From Oscillospiraceae bacterium (GTDB lineage Bacteria; Bacillota; Clostridia; Oscillospirales; CAG-272): a stretch of 64,000 nucleotides of DNA. The stretch spans positions 5,913-69,912 of the forward strand of contig SVTX01000003.1 of the NCBI GenBank assembly GCA_015063545.1, in the 5' to 3' direction. Below the pieces are notes generated by a model that was given only the letters and a program-made list of their open reading frames with translations, had not been told where the DNA came from and made no database searches. Positions 29,004 through 34,420 of this stretch are shown piece after piece. Position numbers and translations under genes: made by a program. The number at the start of each line of letters is the position of its first letter. The stretch's first letter is position 1.

Positions 29004-32000
29004 ATGAAAAAGCACACTTTTTTGAAAGTATTTTCTGTAATAACAGTTTTTGCAATTATTCTTTGTGCATCGGCAACGCCTATTTTTGCATTAGAAAATC
29101 AAACAGCAGTCAATAATGACTACGTACAGGAAAATTATCAGTTAAGTCCATATATAAATTCAAATTTATCTGTCAAGCAAAATGACAATGAGTATATTAC
29201 AGAGGGATTTGAAATAATAGAAGGAGAACGAGAAGGAACGGTTGTTGAAGTAGAGGAATTAAGAGAAGAATACGTAAAACATTTCAGTCTGCCCAACGGC
29301 ACATACGAAGCGGTTGTATATCCCGAACCGGTTCATGTCAAGGACTCCAATGGTCAATGGCAAGATGTGAATAATGCGTTGTCGCTAAAAACTGATGGTA
29401 ACAAAAATGTTTATGCAACAGCAGACAACCGGTTAAGCTTTGCACAAAATGTCTTGGCTAATCAAGATATTTTTAGTTTATCGGAAAATGGGTATTCTAT
29501 ATCTATGTCTCTTGTTCCGCAGAAAGCTACTCTTGATAAAGATATAGTTCTTGAAGAGGAATCTTCTTTGAGTGTTTCAAAAGACATTACGATGAATATG
29601 CCGTCGATAACAAACAGCCCTGCTCGAGCAACAAAATTTGATACTATTGATCAAGCAATTAACATTGACAATAAGAGCTCCATTACTTATTTTAACGTAA
29701 GTGCTGATACAGACATAGAATATGTTATTGGCACACGTAGCATTAAAGAGAATATAATTGTAAAGAACAAAAAAAGCGACTACACGTATTCGTTTGCGAT
29801 TAATGTAGATGGATTGTATGCCGAGCTATACAACGATGGCAGTATAAAATTTTACGATGCGATAAATAACAATCCCCAATATGTGATTCCATCACCGTAC
29901 ATGTATGATGCGGAAGGAAACATATCGTATAATGTGCAATACTCACTGTCACTTGTAGGTAAAAATCAATATTCCCTTACGGTAAGTGCAGATAAGACTT
30001 GGATTAATTCACAAGATAGAGTTTTTCCTGTAACCATTGATCCTTCTTTAACATCATATTCCACAGCATATGACACATATATTGATCCGTCAAGCGCAAC
30101 TTCTAATTTTGGAAACGCAAACCCCTTGATTTTGGACGGCGACAATATTGTATACATGAAAATGGATTTTCCCGAGTTACCCGAAGGAAGCACATTGGGC
30201 ACCGTTTTCTATTGTGTTTCATATTATTTCCCCGATGGAACAACAGATGAAACAATGGACGCTGACATATATGAAATATCTCAATCCTGGGATGCTAATA
30301 CTTTAACATGGAACAGCTCGGCACAATTGGGAAACAATCGGGGATTATCGGAGGCCGCATACGACACAACACGTTTTTCAACCGGTTCCTCTACTCGTTC
30401 TATTAGAATAACATCTTTGGCTAGAGATTGGTACAATGGAACAAAAACCAACAACGGAATAGCTTTGAAATATAACTCGGGATATTCATGTGTGATGTTG
30501 AATTCCGCTGAAACAGAAGGAACAAGTGCTCCGTATTATCGCATAAGCTATACTAGATATGTTCCCGATGGAATTTATTTCATACAAAATGTGGGAAATG
30601 TTTACCAATGGTTAGAAATTCCTGCGGCATGGGACAATGGCGAAATCAAAACTGACGATTATAATCACGTTGCTGGACCATATGTATATGAAATGCATCG
30701 TGCAACATTGTTTAAGATAAGCAGGGTAAGTTCAACAGATAGATATGTCATAAGAACAATGCAAAACAATCTCCTTACACTAAGCGAGGCAGATGGAACA
30801 TACGTTACGAAAAAAATACCGGCAGATGATGCAGCCGTTCAGATAACGGACACATTTTATATAAATTTTGATGGAGAAAATGTAACCATACGTCAATATG
30901 GCAGCGATAATTTTTTAACAACATCATCAACTGCTACAACATATCCAACCGATGTAACTGTTTCTGATGAAGAAACCTTTTCGGATTATTCAAAATGGTC
31001 TTTAAAAAAATACACCTGCCCCGAGACATGGTGCGGCGCAGAATGGTCAGCTCCCCCTGATTTAAATGCAGGGGAGTTGGTATCATATATACCCACAATG
31101 TGGTCGTCTGAGATAAATGCCAATCAGCCTTACATGTACATGTCAAGTGAATCCCAATATACGTATGCTACAGGCACTTGGCATTCTGAAGAAAATATTT
31201 TCGAAGTGACACCGCATATACTCCCGCAATTTTCGTTTTACGTTGAGATACTTACACCCGAAGGAACTGCGATTTGTTCTGTACTTGAAACTCGACAGGT
31301 CACTGTTCCGATACCTGACGGCGAGTACTATATTCAAAACGCTCAACACGGGCTGTTTATGCAGACAGATACTACGCTTGCCACAAGCATTATCATGGCA
31401 GGAGATTTTGGTTACCATAATTTCCAAACTTGGAACATTACCCATTGGCGTGATGGATATTATAAGATTCAATCAAAACTTAGTAATTTAGCTCTTACAT
31501 ATCAGAATGAAACATACGATTCAAGTGGATCGTTGTCTCAGCAGCTATATAATGGACTTTACAATCAAATTTGGAAACTTGAATTGACAGAGCGAGGAAC
31601 ATACATAATACGAAATCGTATAAGTGAGACATATGAAACAGATTGGTGTGCAGCAATGACGGGAATGACTGGGCAACATGAACACAATATAGTACAACAA
31701 AATGCATATGTTTCAGATTATAACTATAATGATGAATGGGGCTTTTATAATACACAGGAATACTATGGTACCGTATCCCATTGGCATAATGATTCAGACG
31801 AGGTAAGATATTTGAGCACGCCAATAACCTATTATTTAGATGATAAGATAGAGGATGGTGGAATTTTTGCGCAAATATGTGACAATGCAATTGCTGAATG
31901 GGCACAAGCACTTGATATTGAAATCACAAAATCTACATCAAAGAACAATGCACAAATAAAAATAGAAAGATTGTCGGAAAGCGCATATCGCCAAAAAGAA

Positions 32001-32318
32001 GCGGAAAAGGGCACCTCTGATTCCTATGGTTTTGCTGTTTCAGAGAACGATGCGTATACAGGATATGTTGTCTATAATAATGAAATCAAGCATATCGTGT
32101 CCTGTACCGGGTATCAAATATATATTCTTTATAGAGAAGTGTCCAATAACGAGAATAGAAAAGTGATTTTGCACGAATTTGGACATTCGATAGGATATAC
32201 CGGACATTCAATAGATCCAAAAGATATAATGTATACAATTTATAGTGATCAATCTACGGATTTAACTGCCGGAGAAATCAATCATGTGCGTCAAATTTAT
32301 GACCTCATTTACGGATAA
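29004..32318 (+). CDS. Secreted multidomain protein: DNRLRE-like region + ricin-type (QxW) lectin repeats + C-terminal matrixin-like metzincin protease
   Basis: Signal peptide MKKHTFLKVFSVITVFAIILCASATPIFA. ADNRLSF lies at 29421-29441. DTYIDPSSATSNFGNANPL...MKMDFPELPEGSTL resembles the DNRLRE domain pattern. QxW-type motifs include YQWLEI, FQTWNI and NQIWKL. HEFGHSIGYTGHS lies at 32172-32210, followed by a DIMY Met-turn. Confidence 0.8.
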   Translation: MKKHTFLKVFSVITVFAIILCASATPIFALENQTAVNNDYVQENYQLSPYINSNLSVKQNDNEYITEGFEIIEGEREGTVVEVEELREEYVKHFSLPNGTYEAVVYPEPVHVKDSNGQWQDVNNALSLKTDGNKNVYATADNRLSFAQNVLANQDIFSLSENGYSISMSLVPQKATLDKDIVLEEESSLSVSKDITMNMPSITNSPARATKFDTIDQAINIDNKSSITYFNVSADTDIEYVIGTRSIKENIIVKNKKSDYTYSFAINVDGLYAELYNDGSIKFYDAINNNPQYVIPSPYMYDAEGNISYNVQYSLSLVGKNQYSLTVSADKTWINSQDRVFPVTIDPSLTSYSTAYDTYIDPSSATSNFGNANPLILDGDNIVYMKMDFPELPEGSTLGTVFYCVSYYFPDGTTDETMDADIYEISQSWDANTLTWNSSAQLGNNRGLSEAAYDTTRFSTGSSTRSIRITSLARDWYNGTKTNNGIALKYNSGYSCVMLNSAETEGTSAPYYRISYTRYVPDGIYFIQNVGNVYQWLEIPAAWDNGEIKTDDYNHVAGPYVYEMHRATLFKISRVSSTDRYVIRTMQNNLLTLSEADGTYVTKKIPADDAAVQITDTFYINFDGENVTIRQYGSDNFLTTSSTATTYPTDVTVSDEETFSDYSKWSLKKYTCPETWCGAEWSAPPDLNAGELVSYIPTMWSSEINANQPYMYMSSESQYTYATGTWHSEENIFEVTPHILPQFSFYVEILTPEGTAICSVLETRQVTVPIPDGEYYIQNAQHGLFMQTDTTLATSIIMAGDFGYHNFQTWNITHWRDGYYKIQSKLSNLALTYQNETYDSSGSLSQQLYNGLYNQIWKLELTERGTYIIRNRISETYETDWCAAMTGMTGQHEHNIVQQNAYVSDYNYNDEWGFYNTQEYYGTVSHWHNDSDEVRYLSTPITYYLDDKIEDGGIFAQICDNAIAEWAQALDIEITKSTSKNNAQIKIERLSESAYRQKEAEKGTSDSYGFAVSENDAYTGYVVYNNEIKHIVSCTGYQIYILYREVSNNENRKVILHEFGHSIGYTGHSIDPKDIMYTIYSDQSTDLTAGEINHVRQIYDLIYG

Positions 32319-32354
32319 CTCGCAAATAAACAAAAAATAGAAAGGAGAAATATT

Positions 32355-34364
32355 ATGAAAAAAATCGTTTTTTCTCTTACATGTATAATATCATTCCTAC
32401 TATTATTGGGCTCTCTACAAGCCTTGGCATCTCCGGAAATTCCCTATGATCCTTCAAATCCATATTATAGAAACGAAAAAGGAATGCCTTGGGCAGTATA
32501 TTCTTCCGCATACACCTACCCCACTCCCGACGACTACAGAAATCCTCCTACGAACGCTGTACTTCCCGATCTGGAGTACACCGACGAAGGCTTTAGAATG
32601 TTCAAGGACGGATATGGCAATGCTCCACTTAAAGCCAATCTGGTGACGCAGGAAAAGCAGAATCTCCGCGAAGGCGTTTCCATAACCGTGAGAGAAGACG
32701 AGTTTTACTACGGCGGTGACTGGGGAATAAACTTCTTCTTGTGGGATAGCCACAATCCTGCCTTTGGTTACCTCGACGCAACATACGGTCAGGGAGTATT
32801 TTTTGATTTGGTCGGATCTTCAACACGTGACGGTGTTCCTACATTCGAGCAGTTAGTATTCTACTGTTGCGATGAAAGCTTCACATGGGTTTACGATGAC
32901 TATCTGCAAAAAGAAGAATTCTGGTCTGTTATCGAATGGTTCCGAGACTTAAGTGCCGAGCAAAGCGATGCCATATTCGACGAGAACGGAAATGCGGTAT
33001 TCAACATGGATCTGAGCTATGATGAGACCACGCAAAAATACAGCTTGACCGTGTTCGGCATAGAAATCAATTCGGATGCGATTACAAACTATATCAATCA
33101 CCGATTCCCCGACGGCGGTGCATACGTTGGATTTGCCGTTCGTTCCAGTACAGGGGCTTATAAAGGACCGTTCTCCTTTACAATGACAGAATTTAACGGC
33201 ATTACCCCTCAGGGCGGATGGGATCACCCGTTATATCACGAATATGACAACGACTGCGATACCTTCTGCGAGTTCTGCGGCAACAAAAGACTTATAGAAC
33301 ACAGCTATGAAGCAGTTGTAACATTACCCACTTGCACAGAAGGCGGCTATACTACCTACACTTGCTCGGTTTGTGCTGACACATACGTAGCAGATGAGAC
33401 TGCCGCACTCGGACACACATTCGCGGATGCGACTTGCACAAATCCAAAGACTTGTTCGGTTTGCAACGCAACAGAGGGCGAGGCGCTCGGGCATAGCTAC
33501 GAAACAGTTGTAACATTACCCACTTGCACAGAAGGCGGCTATACTACCTACACTTGCTCGGTTTGTGCTGACACATACGTAGCAGATGAGACTGCCGCGC
33601 TCGGACACACATTCGCGGATGCGACTTGTACAACGGCTAAGACCTGTTCTGTTTGTAATACAACCGAAGGTGAGGCGCTTGGACATAGCTACGAAACAGT
33701 TGTAACATTACCCACATGCACAGAAGGCGGCTATACTAACTACACTTGCTCGGTTTGCGCCGACACTTACGTAGCAGATGAGACTGCCGCACTCGGACAC
33801 ACATTCGCGGATGCGACTTGCACAAATCCTAAGACTTGTTCTGTTTGTAATACAACAGAGGGCGAGGCGCTTGGACATAGCTACGAAACAGTTGTAACTT
33901 TACCCACTTGCACAGAAGGCGGCTATACTACCTACACTTGCTCGGTTTGTGCTGACACATACGTAGCAGATGAGACTGCCGCACTCGGACACGCATTCGC
34001 AGACGCGACTTGCACAACGGCTAAGACCTGTTCTGTTTGTAATACAACCGAAGGTGCGGCGCTTGGGCACACGTACGACAGTGAATCTGACGAATACTGC
34101 AACATCTGTTCTGAAAAGCGAGATATCCCCTCAACTGAGCCTCCCACTGAGCCTCCCACTGAGCCTCCCACTGAGCCTCCAACCGAACCTGCAACGGAAC
34201 CTATCACAGAGCCTGTGACAGAGCCGACGGCAGAGCAACCCACGACCTCATCTACCGCCGCAACGGAGGAGGGCGGATGTTCTTCGAGTGTTGGTATTGC
34301 CTTTATCGGACTTAGCACTGCACTTGCGGCAGGATATGTCTTTTCCAAAAAGAAAAATAATTAA
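32355..34364 (+). CDS. Secreted/anchored protein: lectin-like N-domain + Cys3/His repeats + (PTEP)n linker + GGC-TM-KKK C-terminal tail
   Basis: Signal peptide ...LLLGSLQALASPE. It lies 37 nt after the upstream ORF, so co-transcription is likely. GAYVGFAVRSSTGAYKGPFSF suggests a ConA/legume-lectin-like fold, which is my inference. Four 64-aa repeats use the same vocabulary as the giant ORF. The tail is EEGGCSSSVGIAFIGLSTALAAGYVFSKKKNN. Confidence 0.8.
   Translation: MKKIVFSLTCIISFLLLLGSLQALASPEIPYDPSNPYYRNEKGMPWAVYSSAYTYPTPDDYRNPPTNAVLPDLEYTDEGFRMFKDGYGNAPLKANLVTQEKQNLREGVSITVREDEFYYGGDWGINFFLWDSHNPAFGYLDATYGQGVFFDLVGSSTRDGVPTFEQLVFYCCDESFTWVYDDYLQKEEFWSVIEWFRDLSAEQSDAIFDENGNAVFNMDLSYDETTQKYSLTVFGIEINSDAITNYINHRFPDGGAYVGFAVRSSTGAYKGPFSFTMTEFNGITPQGGWDHPLYHEYDNDCDTFCEFCGNKRLIEHSYEAVVTLPTCTEGGYTTYTCSVCADTYVADETAALGHTFADATCTNPKTCSVCNATEGEALGHSYETVVTLPTCTEGGYTTYTCSVCADTYVADETAALGHTFADATCTTAKTCSVCNTTEGEALGHSYETVVTLPTCTEGGYTNYTCSVCADTYVADETAALGHTFADATCTNPKTCSVCNTTEGEALGHSYETVVTLPTCTEGGYTTYTCSVCADTYVADETAALGHAFADATCTTAKTCSVCNTTEGAALGHTYDSESDEYCNICSEKRDIPSTEPPTEPPTEPPTEPPTEPATEPITEPVTEPTAEQPTTSSTAATEEGGCSSSVGIAFIGLSTALAAGYVFSKKKNN
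33300..34067 (+). repeat. 4 x 192-bp near-identical in-frame tandem repeat (ABAB pattern)
   Basis: The unit encodes HSYE[AT]VVTLPTCTEGGYT[TN]YTCSVCADTYVADETAALGH[TA]FADATCT[NP/TA]KTCSVCN[AT]TEG[EA]ALG. Copies 1 and 3 carry NPK and copies 2 and 4 carry TAK. Confidence 0.9.
34134..34181 (+). repeat. 12-bp microsatellite-like repeat (actgagcctccc x4) encoding (TEPP)n
   Basis: Three perfect copies plus one copy with a single mismatch. They continue into degenerate TEP units. Confidence 0.85.
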
Positions 34365-34380
34365 GTTAGACTAAATTTAA

Positions 34381-34420
34381 CCCCCGAAACGCTTGGTGCG
34401 TTTCGGGGGCTGCTTTTTTT
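34381..34420 (+). terminator. Intrinsic terminator of the 29004-34364 operon
   Basis: Stem cccccgaaacgc / gcgtttcggggg with loop ttggt, then a T-run at 34414-34420. Confidence 0.75.

What the first reader, a model, noticed from the sequence alone, without database searches (positions are those of the whole stretch)
34127..34364. Possible non-LPXTG C-terminal sorting signal: (PTEP)n stalk + GGC + TM helix + KKKNN
The protein ends ...TEPPTEPPTEPPTEPPTEPATEPITEPVTEPTAEQPTTSSTAATEEGGCSSSVGIAFIGLSTALAAGYVFSKKKNN. It has the tripartite layout (short signature, hydrophobic helix, basic cluster) of sortase, exosortase and rhombosortase substrates. However, the signature is Gly-Gly-Cys rather than LPXTG. 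It resembles the Cys-containing MYXO-CTERM and Synerg-CTERM classes known from other phyla, where the Cys is thought to be modified after cleavage. No sortase, exosortase or CPBP-type protease is encoded in this window.
Basis: partly seen in the sequence, partly recalled or inferred. Interest (0 to 1): 0.6.

Follow-up and report, generated by a model that had tools for sequence, protein, structure and literature searches.

The report
Cysteine-type C-terminal sorting tail, Clostridia
This secreted protein ends in a Gly-Cys motif, one membrane helix and a lysine cluster; at least nine proteins of this sortase-less gut bacterium carry the same tag, and it always occurs together with a gene pair (a second Lgt lipid transferase and an Rce1-type membrane protease) that probably replaces the helix with a lipid anchor on the cysteine.

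Summary
ORF 32355-34364 (669 aa) ends in a PTEP linker, G-G-C-S-S, a 22-residue helix and KKKNN.

- **The tail is not unique.** Nine ORFs of this 1.83-Mb genome share it, on unrelated passenger domains. One relic copy also exists.
- **No catalogued model fits.** No NCBIfam C-terminal sorting model matches. No sortase, exosortase or rhomboid gene was found.
- **The partner genes lie on another contig.** A divergent Lgt paralogue sits 1 nt upstream of a CPBP/Rce1-like protease with intact catalytic motifs.
- **The pair tracks the tail.** In a 151-genome family sample, 31 genomes have the pair and all 31 have tails. None of the 120 genomes without the pair has a tail. A control CPBP paralogue does not track the tail.
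- **The genes are neighbours.** In 80 public loci, Lgt-like precedes the CPBP in 78. A tail-bearing gene ends just upstream in 21.

Best reading: a Cys-type C-terminal sorting signal. The Cys is lipidated by the Lgt paralogue, and the CPBP then removes the helix. This is a mirror image of lipoprotein maturation. The chemistry is inferred, not shown.

This scan has already reported the same system on another piece of this genome and in at least eight other genomes. I found no paper or curated model describing it.

The parts
32355..34364 (+). Whole gene: 669-aa secreted surface protein carrying the tail (stop codon included)
   Evidence: ORF; promoter-like site at 32327-32356, terminator after the stop
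32355..32429 (+). Sec signal peptide (residues 1-25, MKKIVFSLTCIISFLLLLGSLQALA, A-L-A then S)
   Evidence: Read from the translation. The cleavage site is inferred from the AXA rule, not tested.
32430..33254 (+). N-terminal passenger domain (about residues 26-300), no Pfam family
   Evidence: no Pfam hit; no relatives by word search; 70 distant relatives among 1.84 billion representatives; all 14 full-length relatives read end in the same Gly-Cys tail.
33299..34066 (+). Four tandem copies of a 192-nt (64-aa) Cys/His-rich stalk repeat
   Evidence: period 192, 4.0 copies, 91% matches; sequence
34128..34271 (+). Low-complexity linker (residues 592-639), (PTEP)n then T/S/A/E-rich
   Evidence: 12-nt repeat at 34132-34214. 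The same T/E/A/P-rich composition precedes 83 other tails.
34272..34286 (+). Signature motif G640-G641-C642-S643-S644; Cys codon TGT at 34278-34280
   Evidence: In 83 non-redundant tails: G at -1 in 80, S at +2 in 71, V/I/L/M at +4 in 81. G-C is invariant in alignment A2.
34281..34346 (+). Hydrophobic transmembrane segment SSSVGIAFIGLSTALAAGYVFS (residues 643-664)
   Evidence: The distance from Cys to the basic cluster is 23 residues here and 20-24 in 79 of 83 tails.
34347..34361 (+). Cytoplasmic basic cluster KKKNN
   Evidence: Basic tails of 4-5 residues are typical.
34381..34419 (+). Intrinsic terminator (12-bp stem with 9 GC pairs, then a T run)

Best explanation
The tail is a Cys-type tripartite C-terminal sorting signal of a kind not yet catalogued. 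The protein is exported by its N-terminal signal peptide. It is held in the cytoplasmic membrane by the C-terminal helix, with KKK inside and Gly-Cys at the outer face. A dedicated Lgt paralogue (G000 contig C39:3648-4475) then attaches a lipid, most likely diacylglycerol from phosphatidylglycerol, to Cys642. The CPBP/Rce1-like glutamic protease encoded 1 nt downstream (C39:4477-5277) cuts on the C-terminal side of the lipidated Cys and removes the helix and KKKNN. The mature protein is left anchored by a C-terminal lipid, with the PTEP linker and Cys/His stalk spanning the wall. This is a mirror image of Lgt/LspA lipoprotein maturation, and in this sortase-less lineage it appears to take the place of sortase anchoring.

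Shown here:
- the shared tail on many unrelated proteins;
- the co-distribution and gene neighbourhood of tail, Lgt paralogue and CPBP;
- intact CPBP catalytic motifs;
- an Lgt fold with most catalytic residues kept.

Inferred:
- that cleavage and lipidation occur at all;
- their order;
- the identity of the lipid;
- the cleavage site.
For: (1) Nine ORFs plus one relic in this genome carry the tail. All full-length ones have signal peptides. Their passenger domains differ: NAGPA, thioredoxin, Endonuclease I, transglutaminase core, or none.
(2) Of the known sorting-enzyme classes, only CPBP is present: no sortase, exosortase or rhomboid, three CPBP genes.
(3) One CPBP lies 1 nt after a divergent Lgt paralogue.
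(4) Same-genus sample: tails in 24/24 genomes and the adjacent pair in 22/24. In 16 other families of the order there was no orthologue of the pair and only one marginal, partial tail hit.
(5) Family sample of 151 genomes: 31 have the pair and all 31 have tails. None of the 120 genomes without the pair has a tail at E <= 1e-4. Five complete pair-less genomes have none at E <= 0.1.
(6) The control CPBP paralogue (C55 type) does not track the tail: 19/31 against 25/120.
(7) Class sample of 300: only two genomes of two other families have a strong CPBP orthologue. Both have genuine tails and an Lgt with the same signature, unlinked.
(8) In 80 public loci, Lgt-like is directly upstream of the CPBP in 78, and a tail-bearing ORF ends within about 450 nt upstream on the same strand in 21. 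Operons were read in detail.
(9) The CPBP motifs EExxxR, FxxxH and HxxxN/D are invariant or nearly so in 31 orthologues. The best PDB fold match is MmRce1 4cad.
(10) The Lgt paralogue hits PF01790 at E = 1.7e-29. Its AF2 model (pLDDT 89.6) has E. coli Lgt 5azb as its only significant PDB match. R143, G154, Y235, R239, E243 and R246 equivalents are kept.
(11) For MYXO-CTERM, cleavage by a CPBP (MrtX) that depends on the Cys is experimentally shown, and an 'Lgt-like acyltransferase' is hypothesised but unidentified (PMC11980579).
Against: - There is no experimental or proteomic evidence for cleavage or lipidation of any of these tails.
- The Lgt paralogue replaces two residues reported as important in E. 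coli Lgt (N146 and E151) with Cys, giving the signature GRxGCxx[AS]GCC[HY]G, so its chemistry may differ.
- A stand-alone Lgt with the same GCC signature exists in genomes with neither tails nor the CPBP, so that signature is not specific to this system.
- In two other families, and in 2 of 80 loci, the pair is unlinked.
- Two same-genus genomes with tails (83% and 73% complete) lack a detectable pair.
- The CPBP scores below the cut-off of every myxosortase model.
- Related genomes are not independent, so the clean 2x2 table overstates the number of independent events.
- In this genome the pair is not next to any substrate.
Confidence: 0.62

Rival explanations
1. The tail is processed by the Lgt-like/CPBP pair, but the chemistry or final anchor differs from S-diacylglyceryl-Cys plus cleavage after Cys. 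Possibilities include transfer of another phospholipid-derived group, attachment to a glycolipid or lipoteichoic-acid anchor, or cleavage before the Cys with release of the protein.
For: The same co-occurrence and synteny apply. The Lgt paralogue has a changed signature with three invariant Cys in place of N146, E151 and L152, which suggests altered catalysis or substrate binding. GlyGly-CTERM proteins are known to receive a glycerophosphoethanolamine-type anchor (my recollection, not checked here).
Against: The PG-binding Arg pair and the Y-G-x-x-R-F-x-x-E-x-x-R block of Lgt are retained. In one tail-less genome a GCC-type Lgt is the only Lgt homologue found, which suggests this signature can do ordinary lipoprotein work. 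The Rce1, MrtX and LspA precedents all cleave next to a lipidated Cys (PMC11980579).
Confidence: 0.15
2. The tail is a plain, unprocessed C-terminal membrane anchor inherited among paralogous surface proteins. The conserved Gly-Cys serves something else (for example a disulfide or metal contact), and the Lgt-like/CPBP pair merely shares the same lineage.
For: No direct evidence of processing exists. The distribution within the family could reflect a few clades (kin are not independent). In this genome the pair is on a different contig from all nine substrates.
Against: The tail sits on unrelated passenger domains. A single invariant Cys lies at a fixed distance from the basic cluster in 83 tails from many genera. 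A tail-bearing gene lies immediately upstream of the pair in 21 of 80 loci and in 8 or more genera of the family sample. Co-occurrence recurs in two other families. A control CPBP paralogue shows no such link.
Confidence: 0.13
3. The CPBP partner is not a protease here but an acyltransferase component, as LnsB is in Staphylococcus aureus lipoprotein N-acylation. In that case the pair modifies lipoproteins (N-terminal ones, or the tail Cys) without removing the helix.
For: PMC7387801 reports a CPBP-family protein as part of a two-component lipoprotein acyltransferase. The partner gene is an Lgt homologue, that is, lipoprotein machinery.
Against: All glutamic-protease motifs (EExxxR, FxxxH, HxxxN/D) are conserved. 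The pair tracks C-terminal tails rather than lipoproteins in general: canonical Lgt and LspA are present separately. The nearest characterised relatives by profile are myxosortase-type proteases, though below cut-off.
Confidence: 0.05

Closest known systems
MYXO-CTERM with myxosortase MrtX (Myxococcota; Haft 2023 preprint 10.1101/2023.06.07.544157; PMC11980579)
   Same: Tripartite tail with an invariant Cys in a Gly-rich signature (generic GCGC there, G-C-[GK]-S here), then a helix, then a basic cluster. Many unrelated substrates per genome. The cognate enzyme is a CPBP/Rce1-like glutamic intramembrane protease. The proposed order is lipidation of the Cys, then cleavage distal to it.
   Different: Here the hosts are uncultured gut and rumen Clostridia recorded as Oscillospiraceae or Eubacteriales, which I take to have a single membrane (my inference, not tested). 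If so, no type II secretion step is involved. The basic cluster is Lys-rich rather than Arg-rich. No MYXO-CTERM model matches the tails, and the CPBP scores 23 bits against the 100-bit cut-off of Mrt_core. A dedicated Lgt paralogue is encoded with the protease, whereas in Myxococcus the lipidating enzyme is unknown.
Synerg-CTERM with MrtS (TIGR04564 / NF040589; Synergistales)
   Same: A Ser/Gly-rich signature ends in a single invariant Cys directly before the helix. It is the best-matching Cys-type model, though it hits only 3 of 27 tails with a best E of 0.01.
   Different: The match is below any useful threshold. Here the Cys is followed by a conserved [GK]-S-x-[VIL]. The phylum differs, and that system is linked to a T2SS, unlike this one.
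Classical bacterial lipoprotein pathway (Lgt, then LspA)
   Same: An Lgt-family enzyme is paired with an intramembrane peptidase, and a Cys flanked by small residues sits at the outer end of a helix that is to be removed. Read from the helix outward, the tail ([VIL]-x-S-[GK]-C) resembles a reversed lipobox (L-[AS]-[GA]-C).
   Different: The orientation is opposite: the helix is C-terminal to the Cys, and the tail is at the C-terminus rather than the N-terminus. The peptidase is a CPBP, not LspA. The Lgt paralogue fails the Lgt equivalog cut-offs (98 against 334 bits) and has Cys at the N146 and E151 positions. Canonical Lgt and LspA are present separately.
LPXTG / sortase anchoring (TIGR01167; Rumino_NPXTG NF033846)
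   Same: Signal peptide, low-complexity wall-spanning linker, C-terminal helix and basic tail. The helix and basic part weakly matches these models. The isolated tail even exceeds the TIGR01167 cut-off (19.5 against 15.9 bits), so mis-annotation is possible.
   Different: There is no LPXTG or NPXTG motif (only model positions 8-34 of 34 match). No sortase was found in this genome or in 22 of 24 genomes of the genus, while 15 of 16 other families of the order have one.
Eukaryotic/archaeal CAAX processing (prenyltransferase, then Rce1; MmRce1 PDB 4cad)
   Same: Lipidation of a Cys near the C-terminus, followed by cleavage after that Cys by an Rce1-family protease. The CPBP model's best PDB fold hit is 4cad.
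   Different: The substrate is extracytoplasmic. About 27 residues including a whole helix are removed rather than three. The lipid donor enzyme is Lgt-like, not a prenyltransferase.

Membership tests
LPXTG sortase substrates (TIGR01167) | LPXTG-type pentapeptide immediately before the helix | tested here: not met
   The sequence reads ...TEEGGCSSS. The HMM match covers only model positions 8-34 of 34, i.e. the helix and basic tail.
LPXTG sortase substrates (TIGR01167) | A sortase (PF04203) encoded in the genome | tested here: not met
   No match in G000, which is 92% complete. Sortase was found in only 2 of 24 same-genus genomes but in 15 of 16 other families of the order.
Cys-type tripartite C-terminal sorting signals with CPBP (myxosortase-type) proteases | Signature motif with an invariant Cys, then a TM helix, then a basic cluster, at the extreme C-terminus | tested here: met
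   83 non-redundant tails. Cys was the alignment anchor and G at -1 occurs in 80 of 83. The Cys-to-basic-cluster distance is 20-24 residues in 79 of 83.
Cys-type tripartite C-terminal sorting signals with CPBP (myxosortase-type) proteases | Carried by several otherwise unrelated secreted proteins in one genome | tested here: met
   Nine ORFs with signal peptides and differing Pfam passenger domains.
Cys-type tripartite C-terminal sorting signals with CPBP (myxosortase-type) proteases | A specific CPBP (PF02517) subfamily co-distributed with the signal | tested here: met
   31/31 against 0/120 in the family sample. The control paralogue gives 19/31 against 25/120. Two further families are concordant. 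Synteny holds in 21 of 80 loci.
Cys-type tripartite C-terminal sorting signals with CPBP (myxosortase-type) proteases | The tail matches a curated model (MYXO-, Synerg-, JDVT- or CGP-CTERM) above its cut-off | tested here: not met
   Synerg-CTERM hits 3 of 27 tails with best E 0.01. Only whole-protein MXAN family models gave marginal hits (1-3 tails, E >= 0.12).
Cys-type tripartite C-terminal sorting signals with CPBP (myxosortase-type) proteases | The protease matches Mrt_core NF040914 or a named Mrt equivalog above its cut-off | tested here: not met
   Mrt_core 23.3 bits (cut-off 100); MrtJ 32.3 bits (cut-off 75).
Cys-type tripartite C-terminal sorting signals with CPBP (myxosortase-type) proteases | Cys-dependent cleavage of the tail by the protease | not testable with these tools
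   This needs expression and mass spectrometry. It has been shown only for MrtX and TraA (PMC11980579).
Lgt, prolipoprotein diacylglyceryl transferase (PF01790 / TIGR00544), for the partner gene | Family HMM and fold | tested here: met
   PF01790 scores 103 bits against a cut-off of 24.9. The AF2 model has pLDDT 89.6, and its only significant PDB hit is 5azb (E 2.1e-5, TM 0.56).
Lgt, prolipoprotein diacylglyceryl transferase (PF01790 / TIGR00544), for the partner gene | Equivalog-level score (a true housekeeping Lgt) | tested here: not met
   NF000778 scores 98 bits (cut-off 334) and TIGR00544 scores 66.7 bits (cut-off 118.9). A canonical Lgt is present elsewhere, on C33 at 232.7 bits.
Lgt, prolipoprotein diacylglyceryl transferase (PF01790 / TIGR00544), for the partner gene | Catalytic and PG-binding residues (E. 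coli numbering from the literature as I recall it: R143, N146, E151, G154, Y235, R239, E243, R246) | tested here: inconclusive
   R143, G154, Y235, R239, E243 and R246 equivalents are invariant in 32 orthologues. N146 and E151 are replaced by invariant Cys.
Rce1-like CPBP glutamic endopeptidase (PF02517), for the partner gene | Family HMM plus the motifs EExxxR, FxxxH and HxxxN/D | tested here: met
   PF02517 scores 65.8 bits. E124, E125, R129, F158, H162 and H205 are invariant in 31 orthologues. The best fold hit is 4cad with prob 0.99 but TM of only 0.41.

The most novel reading that the evidence does not exclude
These Clostridia run a mirror-image lipoprotein pathway. A dedicated Lgt paralogue S-lipidates a Cys just outside a C-terminal helix, and a CPBP protease then removes the helix, giving C-terminally lipid-anchored surface proteins that functionally replace sortase anchoring. 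If true, it would identify Lgt-family enzymes as the long-sought lipidation step for all Cys-type C-terminal sorting signals, MYXO-CTERM included.
Probability: 0.45. Interest if true: 0.85.

Novelty: new variant of a known kind. Interest (0 to 1): 0.72.

Why it matters
Cys-type C-terminal sorting signals and their CPBP 'myxosortases' were recognised only recently. The enzyme that lipidates the Cys is still unknown. The 2025 MrtX paper only hypothesises an 'Lgt-like acyltransferase' (PMC11980579).

Here the protease is encoded together with its own Lgt paralogue and often with a substrate, in a compact two- or three-gene module. That makes the open question directly testable in a heterologous host.

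It would also be the first such system described for Clostridia, which I take to have no outer membrane. It would explain how a large group of sortase-less gut and rumen Clostridia keep enzymes on their surface (nucleases, glycosidases, thioredoxins, transglutaminases).

It also flags an annotation trap: isolated tails score above the LPXTG_anchor cut-off.

Tried and rejected
1. **Gene fusion in G044.** An apparent Lgt-CPBP fusion in G044:C90 (one 575-aa open frame) is an artefact. The two genes are joined by a run of N/X. I therefore claim no fusion; earlier scan notes that mention fusions were not checked.
2. **First tail model too narrow.** The first tail profile (A1, built from this genome only) missed tails in 9 pair-positive genomes. 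The broader A2 found them all.
3. **G399 tail hit.** The class-sample hit in G399 covers only the helix part, and no ORF there ends in the motif. I treated it as false.
4. **Curated models.** NCBIfam and Pfam gave no sorting-domain model for the tails and no family for the window protein's head domain.
5. **Head-domain homology.** The word-based search of residues 27-300 found nothing. The exhaustive search found 70 distant relatives.
6. **PDB sequence search.** The CPBP gave no hit by sequence, so fold search was needed.
7. **Other sorting enzymes.** Sortase, exosortase and rhomboid were all not found in G000.
9. **Literature.** Searches found no paper on a clostridial Gly-Cys tail or an Lgt-CPBP module.
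Full report
**Observation.** The codon frame begins at 34128, so the stated start is one base early. From the N-terminus the protein has these parts:
- a Sec signal peptide (MKKIVFSLTCIISFLLLLGSLQALA, then S);
- a head domain of about 275 residues with no Pfam family;
- four tandem 64-aa Cys/His-rich repeats (192-nt period, 91% matches);
- a (PTEP)n linker;
- G640-G641-C642-S-S, with the Cys codon at 34278-34280;
- a 22-residue hydrophobic segment;
- KKKNN.

A strong terminator follows the stop codon.

**The tail is a family, not a one-off.** I laid the whole assembly in the Python box (1.83 Mb, 69 contigs, 92% complete). A pattern scan found nine ORFs ending in [G]-C-x-S, a helix and KKK. They lie on C66 (the window), C11, C29 (two convergent genes), C2 (a contig-end fragment), C31, C38, C51 and C53.
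- A profile of these tails finds exactly these nine plus one Cys-less relic on C11.
- All full-length members have signal peptides.
- Their passenger domains differ: NAGPA phosphodiester glycosidase (twice), thioredoxin/redoxin, Endonuclease I, transglutaminase core, or nothing recognisable.

So the tail behaves as a portable module.

**No catalogued signal fits, and the usual enzymes are missing.** NCBIfam (release 20, June 2026) gives only weak matches of the helix-plus-basic part to LPXTG_anchor and Rumino_NPXTG. Among Cys-type models the best is Synerg-CTERM, hitting 3 of 27 tails with a best E of 0.01. The genome shows no sortase, exosortase or rhomboid. It does have three CPBP/Rce1-like genes, a canonical Lgt and an LspA.

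**The partner genes.** On contig C39 a divergent Lgt homologue is followed by a CPBP gene whose TTG start lies one base after the Lgt stop, with GGAGAG upstream.
- The Lgt homologue is 275 aa. It scores 103 bits on PF01790 but is far below the Lgt equivalog cut-offs.
- The CPBP is 266 aa.
I found it in this genome and tested the link independently.

**Co-distribution.**
- *Same genus (24 genomes).* Tails occur in 24/24 and the adjacent pair in 22/24. The two exceptions are 83% and 73% complete. In 16 other families of the order there was no orthologue of the pair and only one marginal, partial tail hit.
- *Family sample (151 genomes, 97 genera, the same draw each time).* The CPBP orthologue is in 31 genomes of 20 genera. 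The Lgt paralogue lies next to it in 30; the 31st is at a contig edge.
- *Tails in that sample.* They were found in 22 genomes with the narrow profile and in the remaining 9 with a broader profile. None of the 120 pair-less genomes has a tail at E <= 1e-4. Five near-complete pair-less genomes have none even at E <= 0.1.
- *Control.* The genome's C55-type CPBP paralogue occurs in 19 of the 31 tail-positive genomes and in 25 of the 120 tail-negative ones. It does not track the tail.
- *Class sample (300 genomes, about 76 families).* Only G331 and G408, from two other families, have a strong orthologue of the C39-type CPBP. G331 has 12 textbook tails (...EEGGCGSSVAIAQIMLILGAAVVLKKRK). G408 has at least two genuine ones. 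Both have an Lgt with the same unusual signature, though unlinked.
- *Sortase.* It shows the opposite pattern: present in 2 of 24 genomes of the genus and in 15 of 16 other families of the order.

Related genomes are not independent, so these tables overstate the number of independent events. The pattern does recur in at least three families and is patchy among genera.

**Gene neighbourhood.** A scan of 185,579 species' genomes with the CPBP alignment found 329 relatives. The best 80 are all uncultured gut or rumen Clostridia, Oscillospiraceae or 'Eubacteriales' MAGs, apart from a few records with other labels. They come from deer, goat, sheep, chicken and human, and include Clostridium sp. 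CAG:448 and UMGS1002. Scanning the 80 loci with profile HMMs gave:
- Lgt-like directly upstream of the CPBP on the same strand in 78 of 80;
- a tail-bearing ORF ending within about 450 nt upstream of Lgt-like, on the same strand, in 21 of 80.

Four such operons were read in full (substrate, then Lgt-like, then CPBP). More appear in the family sample (G095, G099, G122, G176, G135). This evidence does not depend on the phylogenetic profile.

**Anatomy of the enzymes.**
- *CPBP.* E124, E125 and R129 (EExxxR), F158 and H162 (FxxxH) and H205 (HxxxN/D) are invariant in 31 orthologues. Its AF2 model (pLDDT 91.9) has MmRce1 4cad as its top three PDB hits, with prob 0.96-0.99 but modest TM of about 0.42.
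- *CPBP family membership.* It is below the cut-off of every named myxosortase model. It is therefore a new subfamily, not a member of MrtX, MrtJ, MrtS or MrtA.
- *Lgt paralogue fold.* Its model (pLDDT 89.6) has E. coli Lgt 5azb as its only significant PDB match.
- *Lgt paralogue residues.* I aligned it to 5azb and to the genome's canonical Lgt, using E. coli numbering as I recall it from the literature. It keeps YGGL (for HGGL), R143, G154, Y235, R239, E243 and R246. It replaces N146 and E151 with Cys. The resulting signature G-R-x-G-C-x-x-[AS]-G-C-C-[HY]-G is invariant in the Gly, Arg and Cys positions in 32 orthologues.

**Anatomy of the tail.** In 83 non-redundant tails:
- positions -4 to -2 are E/K/G/S-rich;
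- -1 is G in 80;
- 0 is Cys (the alignment anchor);
- +1 is G or K in 71;
- +2 is S in 71;
- +4 is V/I/L/M in 81;
- the basic cluster starts 20-24 residues after the Cys in 79;
- the basic tail is 4-5 residues long in 64;
- the preceding 25 residues are T/E/A/P-rich.

Read from the helix outward, [VIL]-x-S-[GK]-C resembles a lipobox (L-[AS]-[GA]-C) in reverse. That fits an Lgt-like enzyme acting on a helix of opposite polarity. This is my inference.

**The head domain.** The exhaustive search found 70 distant relatives among 1.84 billion representatives. All 14 full-length relatives that I read end in the same Gly-Cys tail.

**Mechanism.** The steps shown here and the steps inferred are set out under Best explanation. 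The inferred pathway is:
1. After Sec export, the C-terminal helix holds the protein in the membrane, with KKK inside and Gly-Cys at the outer face.
2. The Lgt paralogue transfers a lipid to Cys642, most simply diacylglycerol from phosphatidylglycerol.
3. The CPBP then cuts distal to the lipidated Cys. Rce1 does this at CAAX boxes, and the same is proposed for MrtX (PMC11980579).
4. A C-terminally lipid-anchored protein remains, with the linker and stalk reaching through the wall.

The order of steps, the lipid and the cleavage site are unknown.

**Caveats.**
1. A stand-alone Lgt with the same GCC signature but a different N-terminus (MLPNPI...) occurs in genomes with no tails and no such CPBP. 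In G126 it is the only Lgt homologue found. The signature is therefore not specific to this system. On the other hand, this suggests it is compatible with ordinary Lgt activity.
2. The pair is unlinked in two other families and absent from 2 of 80 loci.
3. An apparent Lgt-CPBP fusion was an N-run artefact.
4. CPBP proteins can also be acyltransferase components, as LnsB is (PMC7387801).

**Comparison and novelty.** The system works like the MYXO-, Synerg-, JDVT- and CGP-CTERM systems with their CPBP proteases (Haft 2023). It is not a member of any of them by their models. Three things are new:
- the host group, Clostridia that largely lack sortase and which I take to have a single membrane;
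- the signature, G-C-[GK]-S with a Lys-rich end;
- above all, the dedicated Lgt paralogue encoded with the protease.

The library of about 8.4 million papers and preprints yielded no description of it, and NCBIfam has no model for it. Within this scan it is not new. The same system was reported on another piece of this genome (e1-2151113) and in at least eight other genomes. Those are unchecked AI notes. The conclusions here rest on my own tests.

Noticed in passing
G000:C11:2789-2878 (-) = L130:1639-1728: An orphan 29-codon frame, VINSSSLGVSFIGLASALAAGYVFLKKKK, is nearly identical to the tail of the neighbouring C11 member but lacks the Gly-Cys. It sits right after the stop of an unrelated gene and before a terminator. 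It is probably the 3' relic of a deleted or recombined tail-bearing gene.
   Followed up: partly
G000 and relatives G001-G040: Sortase (PF04203) was found in only 2 of 24 genomes of this genus (both among the more contaminated bins) but in 15 of 16 other families of the same order. The Gly-Cys tail system and sortase look complementary.
   Followed up: partly
L154-L158 (G126:C24, G121:C124, G056:C4, G063:C2, G152:C35): A stand-alone Lgt subfamily with the same GR[IV]GCFFAGCCYG signature but an MLPNPI N-terminus occurs in genomes without tails or the CPBP. In G126 (95% complete) it is the only Lgt homologue found.
   Followed up: partly
window 29004-32318 (+): The gene just upstream encodes a 1104-aa secreted protein with ricin-type lectin and C-terminal matrixin (M10) metalloprotease domains. 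It has no C-terminal anchor of any kind.
   Followed up: no
G000:C53:14868-16286 (-) = L136: The transglutaminase-core member of the tail family has a signal peptide ending ...FSILAC-AQ, which looks like a lipobox. It might be lipid-anchored at both ends.
   Followed up: no
window 32430-33254 (head domain); P0002-P0019: The head domain of the window protein belongs to a small uncharacterised family (70 distant relatives among 1.84 billion representatives). All 14 full-length relatives read carry the same Gly-Cys tail, some behind very long Cys/His stalks (up to 1774 aa).
   Followed up: partly
L101, L111: Two records labelled Erysipelotrichaceae bacterium and Bulleidia sp. carry the same Lgt-like/CPBP pair (44-49% identity). 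This is either mislabelled bins or a spread of the module beyond Clostridia.
   Followed up: no
window 34254-34361: The isolated tail scores 19.5 bits on TIGR01167 LPXTG_anchor (cut-off 15.9) although it has no LPXTG motif. Short or fragmentary gene calls with this tail could be mis-annotated as LPXTG anchor proteins.
   Followed up: partly
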